From assembly GCF_044324785.1 (NCBI RefSeq), contig NZ_CP172127.1: a DNA stretch of 64,000 bases; one strand, written 5' to 3'. Below, piece by piece: positions 19,998 through 33,218 of this stretch. Within the stretch, counting starts at the first letter, position 1, and every line of letters starts with the position of its first letter. Position numbers and translations under genes: made by a program. The notes below the pieces were generated by a model. That model was not told the DNA's origin. It saw only the letters and a list, made by a program, of their open reading frames with translations, and ran no database searches. Origin of the DNA: Escherichia coli. GTDB lineage: Bacteria > Pseudomonadota > Gammaproteobacteria > Enterobacterales > Enterobacteriaceae.

Positions 19998-20243
19998 TTG
20001 AGAGTTACCGGTTTTGATATGGGTGTCGAATCCTTATACAAAACACGGGTAACTCTCATGCTTCATACTACCAATCCCGTTATCAAACACAAAGCCAGTT
20101 TGCTCAATCTGGCTGAAGAACTCAGCAACGTATCAAAAGCCTGTAAAATCATGGGCGTTTCGCGTGATACGTTTTATCGTTACCGCGAACTGGCCGATGA
20201 AGGCAGGGAAAGATTACGAAAGCCCGCTCCCTGCAAGGACTGA
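19998..20243 (+). pseudogene. transposase N-terminal HTH fragment (IS481/IS3-like), truncated
   Basis: 81-aa ORF ...[34 protein letters not shown] matches the GxSRxTxYxWxxRY HTH pattern; 3' end overlaps the H-repeat transposase. Confidence 0.3.
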
Positions 20244-21287
20244 CGCCAGGTAGTTTCTGTCCATGGCTGCTTTTCGCATCTTACGTCTTAACCCTGCCTT
20301 GAATACCTTATCATTCGTTAAAATATTAATAGCGATGTGCCGTATCCCTGAAAATAATTCTGCTGCATTTCCTCTTCTTATTTTGCAGTCGTCTTCATTC
20401 ATTACCACGTCCAGACGCCAGTGCAGCTTATTCTCCACGTGCCAGTGATTTCGGATCGCTGTGGCGAACTTCTCAGCGGTTAAATCAGCAGAACTGATGT
20501 AATATCTGACCGTCATTTCTGGCTCTTTCTTTTGTTCTGCTATTATGGACCGAAAGGAGACTGCCACGCATAATTTCTTCAGTCCTTTCCATTCAAACGT
20601 GAAATCAATAAGTTCATCAGGGACATCGCAAACAATATGAAGACGGATTTCTTCTCTGCCTTGACTTTTTTCACTAATTGCGTAACTGTCATGCTCTGGA
20701 TTATTTAATTCTTTCAGTGGGAATTTTTCCTCAAAGGCTTTATTAAGCCGCCCCTGATTTCCTTTTACAGCGAATAAATAATCACCGCCCTGTTTTTGTA
20801 TCTTCTCTGCGATATCTTTCTGGCAACCCATCGCATCAGTTGTGATAATTTTTCCTTTAATATCCAGCATGTTAAGAAGTTCAGGGATAGCTGTGATCTC
20901 ATTGGATTTCTTATCCGTCCTGATCTGTCCGATGACAAGACTGTGCATTGTTGAGAACGCACTAATGACATGAATCGCTCCCCTGCGGCGACTCTTGTCA
21001 TAAGAATGCCGGAGCGTTTTTCCATCAATTGCAATAACGTCTTTATCATCTGAAGAATGGCAGTCACGCATCCCGTTAATAAAGCACTCGTGAAATTTTA
21101 CAGGACTGATACAGGATACAACTCTGGCAATGGTATCGTGAACAGGAATACCATTTTCAAAATCACCATATTGCTTCAAAAAATCGAGATGTGTTTCCCC
21201 AAAATCCTCTATATCTTCCCAGCATTCTGCACCAGAAATAACGGCACAAATAGTCAACAGTAGAATATCCGACAATTTATGTTCCAC
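20214..21287 (-). CDS. ISAs1-family (H-repeat-associated) transposase; frame extends to ATG at 21350 but is interrupted by an in-frame TAG at 21291..21293
   Basis: 357-aa ORF (V/M)[35 protein letters not shown]... typical of Rhs-linked H-rpt ORF-H; upstream in-frame MELKKLMEHISIIPDYRQA-TAG-K. Confidence 0.8.
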
Positions 21288-21696: not shown

Positions 21697-22071
21697 TTAC
21701 TCTAATGGTTTTATTAATTGTAAATTTTTAAATGTCATGCTTAATAAGCCATCAGAAAAATAAAGAAAAAATTTATATATCCTTTTGTTTTTTAATTTCT
21801 TTATATACCCATTACTTATATTACCTGACTTGTGATTATCGATTAACTCAGCAGAATCCATAGCGAACACTAAATCATCTACATCAGAAAATTCAACTAT
21901 CATTTTTTCCCTAATGTTCTCATTTTTATAAATGTCAATAAATAACGTCATGTTAAAATGAGATTCTTTGAATGTCGTTTTTACTTCTAACAAAACCCCA
22001 TCATGCCAGTCAATTGAACTCACAATGTCAAAATCGCTCATTATATAATCTCCATTATCCGTTTTAATCAT
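21697..22071 (-). CDS. ydcD: Rhs-associated immunity protein (YdcD-like), about 124 aa
   Basis: [31 protein letters not shown]...; ATG (22071..22069) overlaps the Rhs stop TGA (22070..22068) as ATGA; no signal peptide; AT-rich. Confidence 0.7.
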
Positions 22072-25000
22072 GGAGTAACAACGTTTGCAGGTATTGACCA
22101 CCAAAGAGGTGGTGCAAGTGAAGGTATAAATCGAATCACTCTATATATAACATACCCTGCGCCAATTGTAGCACCAGTTGCAAGAGCCGCATCAGTAGTT
22201 GATAGCCCGGAGGTTTTGCATGACAGATCTTTACTTGGTTCTGGCTCGAAACCATATTTTTTTGCACATTTCTTAATGCTATTTGGTGCTGATGAGTAAT
22301 CCTCACCATGGGACATACCTCCAAATTCCCCCATTACACCACTCCCATTTTTACACTCCCAATGCAAATGTCTTCCGTCACCAACAGCATCGCCATCTAT
22401 TCGGATTCGACAACCTTTACCACAGTCCTTCCATTTTCCTGAAGTATGAGCTAATCCCAATGGATCAATCCATTGCACAGGATTGTTCATAACATAACTG
22501 TACGGGTTTATTCCCCCCGCCAGCCCTATCGGATCCTGGATGATATACCGCCCCTGCAACGGATCGTAGTACCGGTGACGGTTATAATACAGCCCCGACT
22601 CCTCATCGTGTTGCTGCCCAGGCAGACGGTAGGGCTGGTGCAGGTGATGCGGGTTTTCCTCATTCAGCAGGTTTCCCCACTCATCATACTCCCCGCTCCA
22701 CGCCGTATTGCCGTCTTCGCTGATGAGCGCCAGCGGCAGGCCCCGGTGGTCGCAGTGGTAAAGATGAACTTTTCGCGCCGGTGTGTATTCCGGCTCCACC
22801 TGTCTGGCCAGTTGCTCTACCGTCAGCCCGCACTGCGCAAGCCACGCCCGGCTTTCACTGCTCACGCGGTCTGCCCGGATTTCCCCCTCCAGCCTGTCCA
22901 GCATCCTCACAAGTTCTGCCGGGAACACCACACCGTGTCCGTTCTCGCTCCCTTCCTGCTGCAACTTCTCCGCCAGGCTCCGCCGCTGCGTTTTCTCCCG
23001 CTCGCCGTTGTCTGTTTCGATGCGGATGAGTGGTGTGAAGCTTCCCGGCTCGTATACCGTCTGGATACGTGTGCTGTCGGTCTGCACCGTCGTCAGGTGG
23101 TCGCCGTCCCAGCCGTACCACGTCACCTCCGGTTTACGCGACAGCGACATCCACCCCGTCAGGTCACGTACCCGCCGCCACACCCGTTTACCCGTCCGGC
23201 GGCCCAGCGGGTCGTAGAGGTAGCGGCTCTCCACCTGCGGCTCGCCATGCTGTATCCGCGTGTAGAACACCAGGCGGTGCTGGCTGTCGTAGTGGTAGTG
23301 GTGGGTCCGCTCGTCGTCCGTCCGTATCACACCCGCCGGGATGCGGTCCGTCTTCTCCGTCAGCCTGCCGTATTCATCGTGGCGGTAGACATAGTGCGCA
23401 TCCTCCGCGATGCGGTTATCCGGCCACACTGTGAGTGTACTGTCCGGGTGCAGCTCCGGGTCCGGCAGCCGGTTGCCCGCCGGGTCCGTGGCATACGGGA
23501 TGCGGATGTCCAGGTCCGGTGCGAGGGTGCGCACACTCTCCAGCCTGCCCGTGGCGCTGTAGCCGTATTCCCGCGTCTGTCGCGGGCCGCTGATGCGCAC
23601 CAGGTCGCCGTTGTCATTCCACCCGTAGTCACGGTCATACACCAGGCTGTTCAGGTGCTGGCTCTGTAACTGGCCTGCGGGGGTGTATGTGCTGGTCAGT
23701 TCGTATGCGGCATTACTGCCTGCCATGCTGCCGAAGCTGCGCACCGTCTCCCGGTGCAGCCTGTCCCGCGTATACTCGACCCGCGGCGTCCCGCCCAGCT
23801 TCATTCCCGCCAGGTAACCGCTGCCATACGTCAGCCACTCCACCGGCGGCAGGCTGTCCGGCGTGACGCGGTTTGCCAGCCCCTGCTCGTTGTATGCGTG
23901 TTTCGTCTCATGCTGCCACAGCAGTTCCCCCGTCTCCGGGTTCTCCACCGTCTGGCGTTCGCCGGTCAGGCGGCCTTTATCGTCATAGCCGTAGTGGACC
24001 GCCACACGGTGGCCTTCACTGATATGGCTGAGGGTGGTTAACCACCCGTGCTCATCATACTGCCACTGCTCTGCCGGGTCGCCGTTCACCGTCCGGTGCG
24101 TGATGCGGTCTGCTTCATCGTAGTACCACTGCGTGACCTGCCCCTCATCCTAGCTGCGGATGAGCTGCCCTGTGGCGCTGTACCGGTAACGCTGTGTCCT
24201 GCCATCAAAGCCGCGCTGCTCCGTCAGGCGGTCCAGCACATCGTAGGTAAATTCACTCCGGCTGCCGTTCTCGTTGGTCAGCACGGTGATGCGCCCGGCA
24301 GCGTCATACCCCATGCTGCGCGTCAGCCCGCCTTCCGTCACACTCACCGGACGCCCGCGTTTATCATATGCGATGGTGCTGCGTTTACCGTCCGGTGATA
24401 TCGTTGCTGTCAGGTCGCCTGCGGCACTGTACTCATAACGGGTTTCACGCCCCTGCGCATCCTTCTGCCCTGTCAGCCTGCCGCGGCTGTCATAGAGACT
24501 ATAAATACTGAGACCTTCCTCCCGGTGAACGGCGATTTGTTGACCGTACCGGTCATACTCATACCGCGTCATGTACCCCGAGCAGTCCGTGAAGGCCCGA
24601 AGCTGACCGTACCGGTTTCGCGTTATTCTCCGCGTTACCCCGATTCCGTCTTCCACCGCGCCGGGCAGGCTACTGCGGGGGGAGTCATAAAACCAGCGTG
24701 TAATGTTACCGTTGCGCGAGGTCTCTTCTGCCAGTCGGCCCTGACGGTCATATTTCCGGCTGCTGCGTAAACCATCCGGATATGTCACTGAAGTCAGTTG
24801 CAACTGGCTGTTATAGCCATACCACACCGTCCTGCCGTCCGGCAGTATCACTGAAGTCAGCTTTCCAGACGCCATATGCAGCCGGTTCACCGTCCGCCGC
24901 CCCGCCGCATCCGTCTGCGCCTTCAGCCTCCCCGCCTCATCATACTCGCTGCGGGTGATGCTCCCGTCCGCATGCTCCTTCTTCACCACCCGCTTCAGAC

Positions 25001-26242
25001 CACCTTCGCCTTCCGTGTACAGCACCTCCCGCCGGTTCAGGCTGTCCGTGATGGTCACACGGTCCTGCCCGTACTCAAAGCGGTAGTCCAGTCCCTCCTG
25101 GTTGACCTGCTCCGTCACCCGCCCGGTATCATCATACCGGTAGCGGCTCTCCGGCCTCCCTGCATAATGGCGCGCCACCATCCGCCCGGCGTGCTCCGCA
25201 TCATAAGTAAACCCGCGCACCTGCGTCCCGCTGCGGTCATACACCGCCCGCAGTTCTCCGCTGGCCGTGTACGTGTAGCGCGCCAGCGGCGCAGTCGGCT
25301 GTTCATCCGGGTATGCCGGGTCGTGTGTCAGCCACACCGCCTCCAGACGGATACCGTTATCCGTGCCGTATTCTGTACCGGCGGGCAGCGTGTCGGGGAA
25401 AGCTGAAGAAGAGGAAGCAGAACGGGGACCTGCAGGGGAAGATAAAGACGTGGCGCGCTGTTTACGGAGGGCTTCCGCCCGCTGCGCCTGTGTGGTCAGC
25501 GCCAGATGAAAACGGCGGCCCGCGCCGTCCGTCACCCCCGTCACCGCGCCCGCCGCTTCCCCCTCTGCCGCCCGGTGGAAGGCCAGCGTCCGCCCGAAGC
25601 CGTCCACCACGCCCGTCAGCACCCGGTATGCGGGCGGCTCCGGCGGCAGCACCTCGTCCGCCTCCGGCACCCGCTCCGGCCAGCCGAGTATCAGCCACTG
25701 CCCGGTTGTGCTGGCAGCCATCATATAGATGTGTGGACTCAGACGGACCGCTTCCGGCAACGCCCGCCAGAGCCGCGCAAGCGGGTGGCCTTTGTGCTGT
25801 TTCAGCACCCCGCCCCGCGCCAGCCAGAACGACTCACTGCGGCTGTAACTTATCTCGCCGGGAAACAGGGGTTCAAAGTGAATACTTCTGCCGCCACTGT
25901 CGTTGAGTATCAGGCCTTCATCGCGTATCTGTAAGCGGATATCGAAGGGGGCTTTCCAGCCGGGACCAAACACCCCACCGGCGCGGGTGTCCTGGTCCGG
26001 TAGCTGCTGTAAGCGCGAGAAAGAATAAACGGCAGCGGGCCGGGCAGCGCAAGGTCCGTCTCGCCCGGCAGCACCTTCGCACCCAGTAGCGGGTTCAGCG
26101 GGTTAGCATAGGTAATCCCTCCCGGACACACCGAGCAGGCCACTCCCGTCGGCGCACCTATCAGCCCCCCTGCTGAACCCTGCACAATATCCAGTCCCTT
26201 GCGGGTCATGTCACCCTGCCGCGCCGCCGGTTTTCCGCTCAT
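22068..26242 (-). pseudogene. rhsE: Rhs family protein, full-length copy inactivated by a 1-nt deletion (about 25968) and an in-frame TAG (24150..24152); C-terminal tail differs from the upstream Rhs
   Basis: Three collinear minus ORFs (25910..26242, 24150..25973, 22068..24089) together align along the intact Rhs at 26781..31043; core ends ...[28 protein letters not shown] then a 127-aa unique tail. Confidence 0.8.
22480..24089. repeat. Rhs core segment nearly identical to 27286..28895 (direct repeat, constant offset 4806 bp)
   Basis: Identical encoded protein over about 380 aa ([28 protein letters not shown]...KLQQEGSE) and identical antisense ORFs at 22473..23669 and 27903..28475. Confidence 0.85.
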
Positions 26243-26318: not shown

Positions 26319-26768
26319 TTAAAGCCCACCTATTTCTTGCGACAGAAAAGGGATTTCTTTTTTAATCCAATCTACCATTTCATTTTTTTCAAAACATACG
26401 TTAATGCCATTCACACTTCCACATTCACCAAAACCATCAAAATAAATTTCACATTTATTATTTTTATTCGAAACAATGTCAATCCCCCATCTTATATCGT
26501 TATTCTCCTCCTTCCTGAAATACTTCATTTGCAATAAATCAATTATCTCACCAGCATAAAAATCGCTAACCCCATTCACCACCACTTTATGTTTGTATAT
26601 TCTCTTGAGACCTTCCTTGCTAAGCGGGGTTAAGGTGGTAACATATGCTGGAAGATTAATTATTTCTATCGTTTTCACACTATCTATTCCACACAATTCA
26701 TTCACTCGCCCCATCCCCAATACCGAAGCAGAAAATAGAGACAATAAAACCATCAAATATTTCATCAT
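26319..26768 (-). CDS. candidate immunity protein for the Rhs HExxH tail; predicted exported (N-terminal signal peptide), 149 aa
   Basis: Starts 12 bp after the Rhs stop; MMKYLMVLLSLFSASVLG hydrophobic N-terminus; four Cys (C26, C116, C123, C131); AT-rich. Confidence 0.7.
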   Translation of the reverse strand: MMKYLMVLLSLFSASVLGMGRVNELCGIDSVKTIEIINLPAYVTTLTPLSKEGLKRIYKHKVVVNGVSDFYAGEIIDLLQMKYFRKEENNDIRWGIDIVSNKNNKCEIYFDGFGECGSVNGINVCFEKNEMVDWIKKEIPFLSQEIGGL

Positions 26769-26780
26769 AAAAAAATCTCA

Positions 26781-29700
26781 CTATTCTGGCGTGCCATTTA
26801 TTGTTGCCGTCTGTGTTGGTGTATTCACACGATAATACACTCCATTATATGCTGTTCTGGTACACTCACCTAAAGTTTTCGCCGCATGCTGTTCAATTAA
26901 AGTGATAACTCTCGCCTCTTCTTTATTTTTATATTGTTCATCCGCACGTCTCACAAGCCCCATATAGCCATCCTTATCAATAAGATATAAGTGCGCATGA
27001 GCAAACTCATGCCCCAAACCTAATGCAGGTGATTGTGATTTCGATTTTAAATCAGTTGAACAAAATAAAGCCGCCTTACCATTCCAATATATAGTCATTT
27101 TATCCGGGTCAAATCTAACGTCGGTTTCATCAATATACTCTATCTTTATGGTTTCTTCAGAGCTTGATAAAAAATCTATAGCTTCTTTCATTCGTGAATC
27201 TTGTTTTAAATACTCAACAGCCTGATTAAAATCACTTGGATCATCGTTAACATGGAATTTTAAACCCAAAGAATCTATAAACCGAACAGGGTTTAATGGA
27301 TATTTATACAGATTCCATTCACCTCTTAGCCCGATTGGATCCTGGGTGATATACCTCCCCTGTAGCGGGTCATAGTACCGGTTCCGGTTATAGTACAGTC
27401 CTGATTCCTCATCATGCTGCTGCCCCGGCAGACGGTATGGCTGGTGCAGGTGATGCGGGTTCTCCTCATTCAGCAGGTTGCCCCATTCATCATATTCCCC
27501 ACGCCATTCCGTTGCTCCTTCGGTACTGATGAGCGCCAGCGGCAGCCCCCGGTGGTCACAGTGATAAAGATGAATTTTTCGCTCAGGTAAATAAACCGGC
27601 TCTATCTGTGCCGCCAGCCGCTCCACCGTCAGCCCGCACTGTGCCAGCCACGCCCGGCTTTCACTGCTCACGCGGTCTGCCCGGATTTCCCCCTCCAGCC
27701 TGTCCAGCATCCTCACAAGTTCTGCCGGGAACACCACACCGTAGCCGTCCTCGCTTCCTTCCTGCTGCAACTTCTCCGCCAGGCTCCGCCGCTGCGTTTT
27801 CTCCCGCTCGCCGTTGTCTGTTTCGATGCGGATGAGTGGTGTGAAGCTTCCCGGCTCGTATACCGTCTGGATACGTGTGCTGTCGGTCTGCACCGTCGTC
27901 AGGTGGTCGCCGTCCCAGCCGTACCACGTCACCTCCGGTTTACGCGACAGCGACATCCACCCCGTCAGGTCACGTACCCGCCGCCACACCCGTTTACCCG
28001 TCCGGCGGCCCAGCGGGTCGTAGAGGTAGCGGCTCTCCACCTGCGGCTCGCCATGCTGTATCCGCGTGTAGAACACCAGGCGGTGCTGGCTGTCGTAGTG
28101 GTAGTGGTGGGTCCGCTCGTCGTCCGTCCGTATCACACCCGCCGGGATGCGGTCCGTCTTCTCCGTCAGCCTGCCGTATTCATCGTGGCGGTAGACATAG
28201 TGCGCATCCTCCGCGATGCGGTTATCCGGCCACACTGTGAGTGTACTGTCCGGGTGCAGCTCCGGGTCCGGCAGCCGGTTGCCCGCCGGGTCCGTGGCAT
28301 ACGGGATGCGGATGTCCAGGTCCGGTGCGAGGGTGCGCACACTCTCCAGCCTGCCCGTGGCGCTGTAGCCGTATTCCCGCGTCTGTCGCGGGCCGCTGAT
28401 GCGCACCAGGTCGCCGTTGTCATTCCACCCGTAGTCACGGTCATACACCAGGCTGTTCAGGTGCTGGCTCTGTAACTGGCCTGCGGGGGTGTATGTGCTG
28501 GTCAGTTCGTATGCGGCATTACTGCCTGCCATGCTGCCGAAGCTGCGCACCGTCTCCCGGTGCAGCCTGTCCCGCGTATACTCGACCCGCGGCGTCCCGC
28601 CCAGCTTCATGCCCGCCAGGTAACCGCTGCCATACGTCAGCCACTCCACCGGCGGCAGGCTGTCCGGCGTGACGCGGTTTGCCAGCCCCTGCTCGTTGTA
28701 TGCGTGTTTCGTCTCATGCTGCCACAGCAGTTCCCCCGTCTCCGGGTTCTCCACCGTCTGGCGTTCGCCGGTCAGGCGGCCTTTATCGTCATAGCCGTAG
28801 TGGACCGCCACACGGTGGCCTTCACTGATATGGCTGAGGGTGGTTAACCACCCGTGCTCATCATACTGCCACTGCTCTGCCGGGTCGCCGTTCACCGTCC
28901 GGTGCGTGATGCGGTCTGCTTCATCGTAGTACCAGAGGATGACAAGCCCCTCATCTTCACTCTGCGTGAGTTTTCCGGTCAGGTCATAATGATAACGTTG
29001 CGTCCGCCCGTCAAAGCCGCGCTGCTGTACCAGGCGGTCCAGCGCATCGTAGCTGAAGTCGCTGTGACTGCCGTTCTCGTTGGTCAGGCTGATGACACGT
29101 CCGGCAGCATCGTACTCCATACTGCGCGTCAGCCCGCCCTGCGTGGTGCTGACCGCCTTTCCCCACGCATCGTACTGTGTCTCGCTCCGGTTGCCGTCCG
29201 GGGTGATAACGGCAGTCAGGTCGCCTGCGGCGTTGTACTCATACTGCGTTTCACGGCCCTGTGCGTCTTTCACCGAGGTTAACCGGCCACGGTTGTCATA
29301 GCGGCGGTAACGGCTGATACCTTCCTCACGGTGGACCGCCGTCATCTGACCAAAGCGGTCGTATTCATAACGGGTCTGGTAGCCCGAGCAGTCGGTGAAC
29401 GCCAGCAACTGCCCGTAGCGGCTCCAGGTCATCTGCCGGGTGCTGCCCGTCGCATCCGTTGTCGTCGCCGGTAATTCACTGTGCGGATTATCATAAGCAT
29501 ACCGGATGACGTCCCCACTGCGCGATGTCTCCGTTACCAGCCTGCCCGGTTCATCATATGCCCGGCGGCTCTCCAGCCCGTCCGGGGACACCACTGCCGT
29601 CACCTGGTTCCCGTCGTTATAGTAAAATTTCGTCTCCCGCCCGTCCGGTGTGGTGATGTCCGTGATATCGCCTGACACCACATTCAGACCGTACTCTGTC

Positions 29701-31043
29701 CGCCGTCCCGCCGCGTCCGTCTGCGCCGTAAGCCGCCCCACCGGGTCATACCCGCTGCGCGTGACGCTGCCGTCCGCCAGTTCTTTTTTCACCACCCGTT
29801 TCAGCCCGCCTTCACCTTCTGTATGCAGCACCTCACGCCGGTTCAGGCTGTCCGTGACGGTGATGCGGTCCTGCTCATACTGGTAGCGGTAACTCAGGCC
29901 TGCCGGGTTCAGCTGCTCCACCACCCGCCCCGCATCGTCGTAGCGGTAGCGCATCTCCGGCCTTCCCGCGTAACGGTGCGCCACCATCCGGCCCGGGTGC
30001 TGCGCGTCATACGTGAAAGCGCGCACCTGCGTATTGCTGCGGTCATATACCGCCAGCAGTTCACCGGCTTCCGTATACGTGTACCGCGCCAGTGGCGCAC
30101 CGGGCAGATTCTCCGGGTATGCCGGGTCGTACATCAGCCACACCGCTGAAAGACGGATACCCCTGTCGGGGCCGTATTCCGTACCGGGCAGTGTGTCGGG
30201 GAAAGCTGAGTCTGAAAGAGGGCGGGGGGTGTCAGGGGAAAATAAGGAAGCGGTGTGCTGTTTACGGGCCTCTTCCGCCCGCTGCGCCTGCGTGGTCAGC
30301 ACCAGACGGAACTCCCGCCCGGCACCGTCCGTCACGCCGGTGATTTCCCCGGCCAGGTCACCGGCGGCCTCACGCCGGTACGCCAGCGTCCGCCCGAAGC
30401 GGTCTGCCAGCCCGGTAAGCACCCGGTACGGCGGCAGCGGCGCTGGCAGTACGTCCTCAGCACCCGGCACCCGCTCTGACCACCCCAGTATCCACCACGG
30501 CCCCTGTGCGCTGTTGGTCGCCAGGTAAAGATGCGGGCTTAACCGGATATCCGGCGGCAGCGCCCCCCACAGCCGTGCCAGCGTGTGGCCGTCCGGCTGC
30601 GCTGCCTTACCACCGCGCACCAGCCACATTGACTCGCTGCGGCTGTACACCGCCTCACCCGGCAGCAGCGGCTCAAAGTGAATGCTCCGCCCGCCGTTGT
30701 CGTTGAGTATCAGTCCGTCATCACGTAGCTGTAAGCGGATATCAGAAGGCGCTTTCCAGCCGGGGCCGAAAACGCCCACCGGCGCAGGCGTCTTCGTCCG
30801 GTAGCTGCTGTAGGTGCGGGAGAGAATGAACGGCAGCGGGCCGGGCAGCGCAAGGTCCGTCTCGCCGGGCAGCACCTTCGCCCCCAGCAGCGGATTTACC
30901 GGGTTGCCCGAAGTCATCCCGCCCGGACACACCGAGCACGCCACGCCGGTGGGCGCGCCAATTCTTACACCTGCCGAACCCTGGACAATGGGACCGCCAT
31001 ACTGAGTCATATCTCCCTGACGCGCCGCTGGTTTTCCGCTCAT
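26781..31043 (-). CDS. Rhs family protein with conserved PAAR-like N-terminus, YD-repeat core and C-terminal tail containing an HExxH motif, 1420 aa
   Basis: [42 protein letters not shown]...; YD repeats; core ends ...[27 protein letters not shown]; tail 26781..27260 contains [10 protein letters not shown] (codons at 26997..27011). Confidence 0.9.
27286..28895. repeat. Rhs core segment nearly identical to 22480..24089
   Basis: see paired repeat. Confidence 0.85.
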
Positions 31044-31109: not shown

Positions 31110-33218
31110 TCAGTACTCTCTCATATCCGGCGTATCCTGCTTTTCATCAGGGGTCTTCGGTGGGGATTTCGAGGCTGCACAGTTCCAGTTAATCAACAGT
31201 GAGTCACCATTAACCTGCTCCTTACCCTGCAAATGAATTTTTGTGCCGTTGAGAAAAATTTGTCCGTCCTTAGTCAGCACCAGCCTTGCCTTACCACAGC
31301 AGAGTTCCAGATGCTCACCGGCGGAGTAAATCGCGGTCTGCCCGGTATCATCCTTTTTCGTTTTACCAACGGTGAAGGTAACGTTATTTCCGACTTTGAC
31401 GTCATAACCCAGCCCGACCCTCAACGATTTATGCAAACCGATCTGCGAGGACTGCATCAGGGCCACCGAGGTGTTCATAATGCCACCTACCGTCGTCTGA
31501 TACGCCACGCCCACAGTCAGCGCACGCACAAGTCCAATCGTTTCCACCTGAACAGAGCCCACTTTAATGATCTGGTTACTGCCCACCGTCTCTATCTGGT
31601 TAACACCCACCGTCTGTATCTGATTGTTGGTAACCGCAATCATCTGATTGTTGCCAATGGTCTCAGCATGGTTGTTTATCACATCCGTGGTGCGGTTATT
31701 CAGCACCTCGGTGTTCATATTCTTCTGCGCGTGGATGTAGACCTGTTCTTTCCCTGTCGCATCGTCAAACTTCAGTTCATTAAACCCGCTGCCCTTATAG
31801 GTTTTCGAACGAATGGTCATCTGCGTCTTTGTTCCCGGCAGGCTGCCGGGGGTGCGGTTTTCCTGGTGGTAGGTACGCCCCATAATAATCGGCTGGTCCG
31901 GATCGCCGTTGAGGAAGTCCACAATGACTTCCTGACCCACACGCGGTATCGCCAGGTTGCCAAAGCTGGTGCCTGCCCACGCCTGTGCCACACGGATCCA
32001 GCATGAACTGTCCTGGTTTGACGGGTTATAGCGGTCCCAGTTAAATTTCACCCGCACGCGGCCATGTTCATCACAGAAGATTTCCTCGCCTGCCGGTCCT
32101 GTCACGACGGCGCTCTGCGGGCCATCCACCAGCGGTTTCAGCAACGGCTGTGGTCGCCATGTTCTGTCTGCCGGTATTACCGCAAAGTGGTTATTCAGTG
32201 TGGTACCCGAACCACTGCGTCCCGGCACCGCCTGCGGCTGCTCGCCGTGCAGATCGCTCGCCACCACCTGCCATTCACGGTTCAGGTTCGCCTGCGGATG
32301 CCCCGTCAGCGCAATTCGCCGTCCCGGCCATATCTCCGGCGAACGGCTTGTTCCGCGCGCCACTTCTGCGTTGTTTCGCCAGCCATCCATCTGCCAGCGG
32401 GCAAAGTTCTGCCCGTGGGCACCCTTGAAACGTCCGGGGTAGTCATACACTTCATACTGTGTGCGCTGGTAATCCTGGTGCTGGCCTTCCTGATCAAAAC
32501 GCCCTGCCCAGCCGGGTCGTTTAAAGGTGTAGTCTTTGGTCACCACGGAAGATGGGCGGATTTGTGCGCTGTAGCGGAACTGGCTGATGCAGAGGGTGCT
32601 CACCTCGGTACGGGTGTTCGGATTCCAGGGGATCTCAAAGGACTCCGGCAGATAACGCACGGTGTCGCACAGGACCAGGCTCTGGTCGGTACTTTTTTGC
32701 GCGTGCTCCTCATAAAAGAAGATGCCTTCCTCCGCCGCCATCCGGCACAGGAAATCGTAATCGGTCTCACCGTACTGGACACAAAATTCACGGGAAGGAT
32801 GCGGCTCGCTGAACAGCGGACTCCACTCGGTCACCCCGTTTTCTTTCAGGATCGTCACGAGGATGCTTTCGATGTCCTCATTCTGGAAGATACGGAAGTT
32901 CTGGCGCAGCCCTGTGCGCCACAGCGGTGGGCACACCTTCATGCTGTACAGCATCTGGTTTTTGTCGTTCTCCCCCAGTTCAAACCAGGTCACCACACCT
33001 TTCACCCGGCGCTGTACGTCATCGCCCTGCCATACCGTCAGGTAGGCCATTTTGTCCAGCACCTGCGCAAATTCAAGGGAAAGAAACTGCTGACTGACCA
33101 GAGAAAGGTCGAGGGAAAAAAGTGAAGAGAGTGACTGGTTCAGATGAAAGGAGACCACCGCAAACGCGTCCGGTGGCAGGCCGTCCACTTCCAGCGTGAA
33201 ACGTAATCCGGTTGACAT
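31110..33218 (-). CDS. vgrG: VgrG (type VI secretion spike protein), about 702 aa
   Basis: MSTGLRFTLEVDGLPPDAFAVVSFHLNQSLSSLFSLDLSLVS... with GGAGG RBS; ends 67 bp before the Rhs start; track ORF extends to 33323 but the RBS supports 33218. Confidence 0.88.
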   Translation of the reverse strand: MSTGLRFTLEVDGLPPDAFAVVSFHLNQSLSSLFSLDLSLVSQQFLSLEFAQVLDKMAYLTVWQGDDVQRRVKGVVTWFELGENDKNQMLYSMKVCPPLWRTGLRQNFRIFQNEDIESILVTILKENGVTEWSPLFSEPHPSREFCVQYGETDYDFLCRMAAEEGIFFYEEHAQKSTDQSLVLCDTVRYLPESFEIPWNPNTRTEVSTLCISQFRYSAQIRPSSVVTKDYTFKRPGWAGRFDQEGQHQDYQRTQYEVYDYPGRFKGAHGQNFARWQMDGWRNNAEVARGTSRSPEIWPGRRIALTGHPQANLNREWQVVASDLHGEQPQAVPGRSGSGTTLNNHFAVIPADRTWRPQPLLKPLVDGPQSAVVTGPAGEEIFCDEHGRVRVKFNWDRYNPSNQDSSCWIRVAQAWAGTSFGNLAIPRVGQEVIVDFLNGDPDQPIIMGRTYHQENRTPGSLPGTKTQMTIRSKTYKGSGFNELKFDDATGKEQVYIHAQKNMNTEVLNNRTTDVINNHAETIGNNQMIAVTNNQIQTVGVNQIETVGSNQIIKVGSVQVETIGLVRALTVGVAYQTTVGGIMNTSVALMQSSQIGLHKSLRVGLGYDVKVGNNVTFTVGKTKKDDTGQTAIYSAGEHLELCCGKARLVLTKDGQIFLNGTKIHLQGKEQVNGDSLLINWNCAASKSPPKTPDEKQDTPDMREY

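What the first reader, a model, noticed from the sequence alone, without database searches (positions are those of the whole stretch)
26319..31043. Intact Rhs toxin with an HExxH (zincin-like) C-terminal tail and a signal-peptide, cysteine-containing candidate immunity protein
The 1420-aa Rhs has the conserved N-terminus and YD-repeat core, and the core ends at ...[27 protein letters not shown]. It is followed by a 159-aa tail (26781..27260) whose only recognisable motif is [10 protein letters not shown], an HExxH zinc-binding signature (codons at 26997..27011). The tail and the downstream gene are visibly AT-rich against a GC-rich core, the usual sign of a swapped toxin/immunity cassette. The ORF 12 bp downstream (149 aa) begins with a hydrophobic signal-like segment (MMKYLMVLLSLFSASVLG) and has four cysteines, which suggests an exported, disulfide-bonded immunity protein. 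A periplasmic immunity protein would imply the toxin acts in the target-cell envelope (peptidoglycan, lipoprotein or periplasmic protein), which is unusual for Rhs tails. I cannot assign the tail to a named toxin family from sequence alone.
Basis: partly seen in the sequence, partly recalled or inferred. Interest (0 to 1): 0.72.

Follow-up and report, generated by a model that had tools for sequence, protein, structure and literature searches.

The report
Rhs toxin with botulinum-like zinc protease tail
This is an intact E. coli Rhs contact-weapon toxin whose swapped-in tip is a small zinc protease of the NleD/HopH1 (M91) family, folded like the botulinum toxin light chain and paired with an exported antidote protein; the toxin class is already known, but its likely action in the rival cell's periplasm and its target are unresolved.

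Summary
Every stated coordinate holds. The Rhs ORF (26781..31043, minus strand, 1420 aa) is intact. Its 159-aa tail carries HEFAH at 26997..27011. A 149-aa ORF with an N-terminal signal-like segment and four Cys starts 12 nt downstream. GC falls from 0.63 (core) to 0.37 (tail) and 0.34 (downstream ORF).

The downstream ORF is an allele of the named 'RHS element protein dsORF-h1'. Its homologues follow the same toxin domain in distant bacteria, mostly with a Sec signal, lipobox or membrane anchor.

An 87%-identical cassette is present in about 1000 of 5426 complete E. coli genomes; in the one genome examined it lies in the T6SS cluster. A Salmonella Dublin PAAR-Rhs-M91 pair has shown modest antibacterial activity.

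Target and compartment remain untested.

The parts
31110..33218 (-). vgrG (T6SS spike protein), immediately upstream of the Rhs gene. The likely start is MSTGLRF.
   Evidence: NCBIfam TIGR03361 VI_Rhs_Vgr at 626.7 bits. Annotated as VgrG in strain N3. The ORF stop at 31110 lies 66 nt before the rhs ATG.
26781..31043 (-). Intact Rhs toxin gene, 1420 aa including the tail; the stop codon is included in the coordinates.
   Evidence: Single ORF. RHS_core equivalog matched 1-1261 of 1261 at 2753.6 bits, plus YD repeats and Rhs_assc_core. Pfam DUF6531, RHS_repeat and RHS match; PAAR_motif reaches only E=0.28.
27261..27341 (-). Core end DPIGL-(17 aa)-DSLGL: the paired aspartyl autoprotease motifs after which the tail should be released.
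   Evidence: Sequence read. Two DPxGL-type motifs 17 residues apart, with the catalytic Asp in the second, are described for Rhs1 in PMC8636562. Here the second motif reads DSLGL. Cleavage is inferred, not shown.
26784..27260 (-). 159-aa C-terminal toxin domain: an M91/Tox-HopH1-type zinc metallopeptidase with a minimal botulinum-light-chain-like fold.
26997..27011 (-). HEFAH (tail residues 84-88): predicted zinc-binding His residues and catalytic Glu.
   Evidence: Codons read. H84 148/149, E85 147/149, H88 149/149 conserved.
26916..26921 (-). E114-E115 at the start of the 'glutamate helix': candidate third zinc ligand.
   Evidence: E114 144/149 and E115 146/149 conserved. They lie in helix 113-130 of the model. 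They align with EEAR of NleD. The ligand role is inferred by analogy with BoNT E261 (PMC6367388).
26847..26858 (-). R135-T-A-Y138: an RxxY motif like the BoNT R363-x-x-Y366 active-site motif.
   Evidence: R135 148/149 conserved. Position 138 is His in 141/149 and Tyr in 3, and this allele has Tyr. The BoNT/M91 motif is described in PMC6367388.
26319..26768 (-). 149-aa candidate immunity protein, an allele of 'RHS element protein dsORF-h1'.
26715..26768 (-). Predicted Sec signal peptide of the immunity protein (residues 1-18, MMKYLMVLLSLFSASVLG).
   Evidence: Heuristic scan: one Lys, a 15-17-aa uncharged hydrophobic run, AXA-like sites, no lipobox. Conserved in all E. coli/Shigella alleles. SignalP not available.

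Best explanation
This is a T6SS-type Rhs effector-immunity module of E. coli.

Delivery (inferred). The Rhs protein is encoded right after vgrG and is presumably mounted on the VgrG spike. Its YD-repeat shell encloses a 159-aa C-terminal domain. That domain should be released by aspartyl autoproteolysis after ...IDSLGL.

Toxin. The released domain is a zinc endopeptidase of the M91 / Tox-HopH1 clade, the family of the type III effectors NleD and HopH1. Its fold is a stripped-down botulinum-light-chain core. The predicted catalytic set is HExxH, a downstream Glu as third zinc ligand, further invariant Glu residues, and RxxY.

Immunity and site of action. The cognate immunity protein (dsORF-h1 family) carries an export signal. 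The toxin therefore most likely acts in the periplasm or envelope of a neighbouring Gram-negative cell. There it would cleave a specific envelope protein rather than a peptidoglycan stem peptide. Sibling cells would be protected by the periplasmic immunity protein binding the protease.

Inferred: secretion by the T6SS, autocleavage, periplasmic site of action, protein substrate, and neutralisation by binding.
For: - Intact Rhs directly after vgrG.
- The 87%-identical RhsH-type cassette is present in about 1000 of 5426 complete E. coli genomes. In the one genome examined it lies in the T6SS main cluster as hcp-vgrG-rhs-dsORF-h1 next to tssBCEFG.
- Relatives of the tail hit Peptidase_M91, 9 of 18 at E<=1e-3. 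NCBI names the Hafnia relatives M91.
- Catalytic residues are near-invariant in 149 domains.
- Homologues of the immunity protein lie directly downstream of the toxin domain in Hafnia, L005, L009, L026, L039 and L008. They carry Sec signals, lipoboxes or a membrane anchor.
- An orphan dsORF-h1 is retained after an ISAs1 insertion removed its toxin.
- The Salmonella Dublin PAAR-RHS-M91 pair SED_RS06335/SED_RS06340 (immunity with 1 TM) gave a 2.4-fold effect in competition (PMC8867033).
- Precedent for a periplasm-acting T6SS zincin with an exported, DsbA-dependent immunity protein: VgrG2b/PA0261 (PMC6899460).
Against: - No experiment on this protein exists.
- The tail itself hits PF14891 only at E=0.055-0.11. 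Direct profile comparison with NleD is not significant (E 0.017-0.24, probability <3%).
- Characterised relatives (NleD, HopH1, BoNT) act on eukaryotic cytosolic proteins. A 2026 Salmonella survey lists Tox-HopH1 as anti-eukaryotic (PMC12994826).
- Three Eremiobacterota immunity homologues (L017, L025, L032) show no signal peptide.
- PAAR is not significant by Pfam (E 0.28).
- No EagR-type chaperone gene lies between vgrG and rhs.
- I did not check whether the host strain has a functional T6SS.
- The signal peptide was judged by heuristics only.
- There is no good Shine-Dalgarno sequence before the immunity ATG.
Confidence: 0.6

Rival explanations
1. Periplasmic toxin, but a cell-wall peptidase: the tail cuts peptidoglycan stem peptides or the Lpp-peptidoglycan link. 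This is how the Salmonella literature labels the Rhs-M91 effector.
For: The exported immunity protein fits any envelope target. PMC8867033 and PMC12288458 list the Salmonella Rhs-M91 as 'peptidoglycan hydrolase'.
Confidence: 0.15
2. Anti-eukaryotic effector: like NleD and HopH1, the tail cleaves host proteins such as MAP kinases after T6SS delivery into host cells. The downstream exported protein would not be an immunity protein.
For: The M91/Tox-HopH1 founders are type III effectors against host kinases. PMC12994826 groups Tox-HopH1 with anti-eukaryotic effectors.
Against: Tight, conserved synteny with one small protein family across distant bacteria, many of them environmental MAGs with no known animal host. 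An orphan copy of that gene is retained. The Salmonella pair behaves as an effector-immunity module in bacterial competition. NleD itself is only marginally similar.
Confidence: 0.12
3. Cytoplasm-acting antibacterial protease. The hydrophobic N-terminus of the 149-aa protein would be an uncleaved anchor, or irrelevant, and neutralisation would occur in the cytoplasm, as for most Rhs tails.
For: Most characterised Rhs tails act in the cytoplasm (PMC8636562). Three distant immunity homologues lack any signal. The STEC preprint assumes a cytoplasmic target.
Against: The N-terminal segment has signal-peptide length (15-17 residues) with AXA-like sites and one basic residue. It is replaced by lipoboxes or classical Sec signals in other lineages. 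That pattern is hard to explain if the protein works in the cytoplasm.
Confidence: 0.1

Closest known systems
RhsH-type tail plus 'RHS element protein dsORF-h1' of E. coli (the common allele, found in the T6SS main cluster in the genome examined)
   Same: Same architecture and same toxin and immunity families. DNA is 86.6% identical over tail plus immunity. The tail is 72% and the immunity protein 83% identical at protein level. The core end ...[10 protein letters not shown] is identical.
   Different: This allele is rarer: at least 99% identity in 38 of 5426 genomes. It sits at the yncH-yddH vgrG-rhs island rather than the T6SS cluster. It has Tyr instead of His at position 138. Whether the two immunity alleles cross-protect is unknown.
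Salmonella Dublin PAAR-RHS-Peptidase_M91 effector SED_RS06335 with immunity SED_RS06340 (PMC8867033)
   Same: Rhs beginning [10 protein letters not shown], an M91-annotated HExxH tail, a small downstream gene with a hydrophobic N-terminal segment, and an antibacterial effector-immunity phenotype.
   Different: The Salmonella immunity protein is 110 aa with one TM segment, against 149 aa with a signal peptide here. I could not obtain the Salmonella sequences, so the degree of similarity of tail and immunity protein was not measured.
NleD / HopH1 type III effectors (MEROPS M91; Tox-HopH1 of Zhang et al. 2012, PMC3482391)
   Same: HExxH followed about 27 residues later by EE-R, then RxxY. The same Pfam family is reached through relatives. 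Zhang et al. already list this clade on RHS and T6SS toxins.
   Different: NleD is a stand-alone 232-aa host-directed effector with no immunity gene. Direct similarity to this tail is not significant. Zhang et al. list no immunity family for Tox-HopH1, whereas this subfamily has a conserved one.
Botulinum/tetanus neurotoxin light chains (MEROPS M27)
   Different: The light chains are about 420 aa, with large insertions that grip SNARE substrates (PMC6367388). Sequence identity is only 12-20%. The target and delivery system are different.
VgrG2b C-terminal domain / Tpe1 with PA0261 / Tpi1 (P. aeruginosa, A. baylyi; PMC6899460)
   Same: A functional analogue: a T6SS-delivered HExxH metallopeptidase that is toxic only in the periplasm. 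Its immunity protein needs its signal peptide and DsbA.

Membership tests
Rhs (RHS element core protein) toxins | Full-length YD-repeat core matching the curated equivalog above its cutoff | tested here: met
   NF041261 matched 1-1261 of 1261 at 2753.6 bits against a cutoff of 2000. TIGR01643 YD repeats and TIGR03696 also match. Pfam RHS_repeat x9 and RHS match.
Rhs (RHS element core protein) toxins | Core demarcated from a variable tail by paired DPxGL-type aspartyl protease motifs about 17 residues apart | tested here: met
   DPIGL-17 aa-DSLGL at residues 1235-1261. The motif is described in PMC8636562. The second motif has Ser for Pro. Autocleavage itself was not tested.
T6SS PAAR-Rhs effectors | Genetic linkage to vgrG or a T6SS cluster | tested here: met
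   vgrG ends 66 nt upstream. The sister allele lies in an hcp-vgrG-rhs arrangement beside tssBCEFG.
T6SS PAAR-Rhs effectors | N-terminal PAAR domain | tested here: inconclusive
   Pfam PAAR_motif reaches only E=0.28 over residues 3-20. The same N-terminus ([10 protein letters not shown]) is called PAAR in PMC8867033.
T6SS PAAR-Rhs effectors | T6SS-dependent secretion and killing | not testable with these tools
   Needs competition assays. Whether the host genome has a T6SS was not examined.
Peptidase_M91 / Tox-HopH1 (NleD, HopH1) | Significant match to Pfam PF14891 | tested here: inconclusive
   The tail itself gives E=0.055-0.11. 9 of 18 homologues hit at E<=1e-3 (best 6.6e-9) and 17 of 18 at E<=0.1. 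Hafnia homologues (42-44% identical) carry PF14891 and the NCBI name M91.
Peptidase_M91 / Tox-HopH1 (NleD, HopH1) | HExxH plus downstream Glu ligand and RxxY-type motif | tested here: met
   H84ExxH88, E114/E115 and R135xxY138 are present. They are conserved in 139-149 of 149 domains, with His usual at position 138. The motif list comes from PMC6367388.
Peptidase_M91 / Tox-HopH1 (NleD, HopH1) | Demonstrable homology to NleD itself | tested here: inconclusive
   hhalign of an 18-sequence profile gives E 0.24. A 149-sequence profile gives E 0.017 and probability 2.7% over 106 in-register columns. BLASTP is not significant.
Peptidase_M91 / Tox-HopH1 (NleD, HopH1) | Zincin fold closest to BoNT light chain, the published nearest neighbour of M91 | tested here: met
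   [not shown]
VgrG2b C-ter / Tpe1 metallopeptidase effectors | Sequence or close structural similarity to the VgrG2b effector domain (PDB 6H56) | tested here: not met
   [not shown]
Tox-MPTase1-5 (including the E. coli Rhs-MPTase4) | Match to the Pfam Tox-MPTase models | tested here: not met
   No Tox-MPTase hit at E<=10 for the tail, or at E<=0.1 for any of its 18 relatives.
dsORF-h1 immunity family | Close similarity to proteins named 'RHS element protein dsORF-h1' and a position directly after the cognate tail | tested here: met
   83% identity over 100% of length. Annotated as dsORF-h1 under the matching DNA in hundreds of genomes. The gap is 12 nt.
dsORF-h1 immunity family | Cleavable signal peptide and periplasmic location | tested here: inconclusive
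   Heuristic features are all present and conserved or replaced by a lipobox or TM segment in homologues. No SignalP run and no fractionation. Three distant homologues lack a signal.
dsORF-h1 immunity family | Neutralises the cognate toxin | not testable with these tools
   Needs co-expression or competition assays. Indirect support comes from conserved synteny and orphan retention.

The most novel reading that the evidence does not exclude
Probability: 0.4. Interest if true: 0.65.

Novelty: new member of a known kind. Interest (0 to 1): 0.42.

Why it matters
About one in five complete E. coli genomes carries this toxin-immunity cassette, in this allele or the RhsH allele, and in the genome examined the RhsH allele lies inside the T6SS cluster. 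No substrate is known.

The literature disagrees on whether Tox-HopH1/M91 T6SS effectors are antibacterial or anti-host. The conserved, mostly exported immunity family found here argues for an antibacterial, periplasmic role, and it gives a direct experimental handle.

The domain is only 159 residues yet keeps the botulinum light-chain catalytic core. That makes it a tractable model for how this protease fold recognises substrates, and for where the M27/M91 toxins came from.

Tried and rejected
- NCBIfam on the tail and immunity protein: nothing meaningful.
- PADLOC on the tail, the immunity protein and two relatives: no hits.
- PDB sequence-profile search with the tail family: no relevant hit.
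- Tox-MPTase families were rejected: no Pfam hit.
- Direct NleD comparison was not significant, even with a 149-sequence profile.
- Pfam DUF7584 on the immunity protein (E 0.017) was treated as chance.
- Literature search for RhsH/dsORF returned only unrelated 'rhSHH' papers. The original RhsH description is not in the held library.
- I tried to find the Salmonella Dublin tail among retrieved proteins using a C-terminal peptide deduced from a primer. It was not found, so that comparison is missing.
- The genome-contig scan used a single exact peptide (QSPALGLGH). It is therefore biased to Eremiobacterota MAGs and is not a taxonomic census.
- A fused toxin-immunity AlphaFold run was considered and dropped, because the tool returns no coordinates or PAE from which to judge an interface.
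- Loci L003/L004 (stand-alone homologue) and L007 have no recognisable immunity gene downstream.
Full report
**Observation**

The minus strand carries one uninterrupted 1420-aa ORF at 26781..31043 and a 149-aa ORF at 26319..26768. The two are 12 nt apart, and the HEFAH codons lie at 26997..27011.

The curated NCBIfam equivalog RHS_core matches residues 1-1261 across its whole length (2753.6 bits, cutoff 2000). So the core is complete and stops exactly at ...[27 protein letters not shown]. That stretch contains two DPxGL-type motifs 17 residues apart. This is the arrangement shown for Photorhabdus Rhs1 to carry the aspartyl autoprotease that frees the tail (PMC8636562). Here the second motif reads DSLGL.

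GC is 0.631 in the core, 0.369 in the tail and 0.342 in the downstream ORF. The break lies near 27310.

**Context**

The window is E. coli. The tail region is 100% identical to strain N3. There the locus lies between yncH and yddH and reads vgrG, Rhs, a small ORF, a second broken Rhs, a small ORF, then an ISAs1 transposase. vgrG is confirmed by TIGR03361.

The tail plus downstream ORF at >=99% identity occurs in 38 of 5426 complete E. coli genomes. A sister allele at 86.6% DNA identity occurs in about 985 more. Its downstream gene is annotated 'RHS element protein dsORF-h1'. In strain 14EC029 that sister cassette is the Rhs of the T6SS main cluster: hcp-vgrG-rhs-dsORF-h1 beside tssB, tssC, tssE, tssF and tssG. 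In strain LR-33 an ISAs1 insertion has removed the toxin end, but dsORF-h1 is kept as an orphan in the same T6SS cluster.

**What the tail is**

- Pfam on the tail alone gives only Peptidase_M91 at E 0.055-0.11.
- Homology search finds the RhsH-type tail (72% identical), a Shigella variant (53%), Hafnia alvei proteins (42-44%) that carry PF14891 and the NCBI name 'M91 family zinc metallopeptidase', and many metagenomic relatives.
- Scanned individually, 9 of 18 aligned relatives hit PF14891 at E<=1e-3 (best 6.6e-9) and 17 of 18 at E<=0.1.
- A profile of the family finds 2400 representative clusters (50% identity) at E<=1e-3. Among the 150 best listed, the domain is usually at the C-terminus of proteins of 100 to 3700 aa. 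The full-length proteins inspected (P0096, P0162, P0185, P0061) are Rhs proteins.
- Zhang et al. (PMC3482391) had already defined this clade as Tox-HopH1. It includes HopH1 and NleD, is found with RHS repeats and T6SS, and has no immunity family listed.

**Structure**

This agrees with the published finding that M91 is the protease family nearest to the botulinum M27 family, sharing HExxH, a Glu zinc ligand, a second Glu and RxxY (PMC6367388).

In 149 aligned domains, conservation is as follows:

| Residue | Conserved in (of 149) |
|---|---|
| H84 | 148 |
| E85 | 147 |
| H88 | 149 |
| E114 | 144 |
| E115 | 146 |
| E123 | 149 |
| E132 | 143 |
| R135 | 148 |

Position 138 is His in 141 domains and Tyr in 3. 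This allele has Tyr, giving a literal RxxY. The catalytic apparatus thus looks intact.

Direct comparison with NleD from O157:H7 Sakai (fetched) is in register over HExxH...EE-R but is not statistically significant. I therefore file the tail under M91/Tox-HopH1 through its relatives and its fold, and mark direct NleD homology as inconclusive.

**The downstream protein**

All E. coli and Shigella alleles keep the N-terminal segment MKYLMVLL..FS.S.LG and the four Cys. A heuristic scan shows one basic residue, a 15-17-residue hydrophobic run, AXA-like sites and no lipobox.

More telling, homologous ORFs sit directly after the same toxin domain in distant organisms:

| Locus | Homology evidence | N-terminal feature |
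|---|---|---|
| Hafnia (L002) | BLASTP 2e-23 | Sec-type signal |
| Metagenome contig L005 | profile hit 9e-59 (this sequence is a row of the query alignment, so circular); independent BLASTP only E 0.01 | MKTVFEIVVLLCVLVTLGKA |
| L009 | hhalign 98.4%, E 8e-15 | Lipobox, if started at the in-frame ATG: ...VALSVGVVAC |
| Omnitrophica MAG L026 | iterated profile hit | MKKIITLSIIMFLSAVIVQA |
| Eremiobacterota L039 | iterated profile hit | Lipobox-like LFVAC |
| L008 | weak homology | Membrane anchor |

Three Eremiobacterota loci (L017, L025, L032) have the homologue but no visible signal. In those genomes the toxin domain is a short stand-alone protein rather than an Rhs tail.

Only Cys26 and Cys106 are shared with Hafnia, and none is shared with more distant members. 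So the disulfide idea is weak.

**Mechanism**

The best-supported reading is a T6SS Rhs effector whose released tail is a zinc endopeptidase working in the target's periplasm and blocked by an exported immunity protein. Two published cases support it.

- The Salmonella Dublin PAAR-RHS-M91 protein SED_RS06335 and its one-TM partner SED_RS06340 behave as an effector-immunity pair, with 2.4-fold lower prey recovery (PMC8867033).
- P. aeruginosa VgrG2b is a T6SS zincin that is toxic only in the periplasm. Its immunity protein needs both its signal peptide and DsbA (PMC6899460). However, that protein belongs to a different zincin family.

I favour a protein substrate over peptidoglycan because all close structural relatives are site-specific protein endopeptidases. 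This is an inference.

The main counter-views are two. One is the anti-eukaryotic label given to Tox-HopH1 in a 2026 Salmonella survey (PMC12994826). The other is the cytoplasmic target assumed in a 2024 STEC preprint, which had already noticed an Rhs-Peptidase M91 downstream of vgrG in E. coli O22:H8 and stated that none has been characterised.

**Novelty**

The toxin family, its presence on Rhs and T6SS proteins, the E. coli gene pair and a Salmonella phenotype are all on record. This is therefore a new allele of a known kind.

Three points appear under-described. The first is the conserved immunity family with mostly extracytoplasmic targeting, which Zhang et al. list as absent. The second is the strength of the botulinum-light-chain structural match for a 159-residue domain. 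The third is the cassette's frequency in E. coli.

Target, compartment and T6SS dependence all remain to be shown.

Noticed in passing
window 21697..26242 (minus strand): A second full-length Rhs follows 77 nt after the immunity gene. It is broken into three ORFs (25910-26242, 24150-25973, 22068-24089). Its different AT-rich tail hits Pfam Tox-WTIP (PF15654, E 3.2e-13) and is followed by a 135-aa ORF (21697..22104) that may be its immunity gene.
   Followed up: partly
window 20214..21287 (minus strand): A 357-aa ORF corresponds to the ISAs1-family (H-repeat) transposase. It is annotated with an internal stop at this position in strain N3, at the distal end of the Rhs island. The same element type truncates the sister cassette in strain LR-33.
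   Followed up: partly
L017, L025, L032 (Eremiobacterota MAGs), about 2790..3330 in each: The same M91-like domain occurs as a short stand-alone protein, not on Rhs. It is followed by an immunity-family homologue that shows no signal peptide. The compartment or biology may differ in this phylum.
   Followed up: partly
L061 6001..6450 (E. coli LR-33) and L062 (E. coli 14EC029): An orphan dsORF-h1 is retained after an ISAs1 insertion removed the cognate tail. In 14EC029 the intact sister cassette is the Rhs of the T6SS main cluster next to tssBCEFG.
   Followed up: yes
window 26847..26849 (tail residue 138): This allele has Tyr where 141 of 149 family members, including the 72%-identical RhsH-type tail, have His. 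This gives a literal BoNT-like RxxY motif.
   Followed up: partly
L001 20532..24798 (strain N3): The Rhs gene of strain N3 has a tail region 100% identical to the window. It is annotated as frameshifted (4267 nt), whereas the window copy is one intact 4263-nt ORF. This is either a real difference or an assembly error in N3.
   Followed up: no
L011 (1670-bp contig in a 'Collinsella sp.' MAG): This contig carries the RhsH-type tail (72% identical to the window tail at protein level) and an ORF matching the dsORF-h1 profile (E 6.5e-67). It is most likely a mis-binned Enterobacterales contig rather than a Collinsella gene.
   Followed up: no
[not shown]
   Followed up: partly
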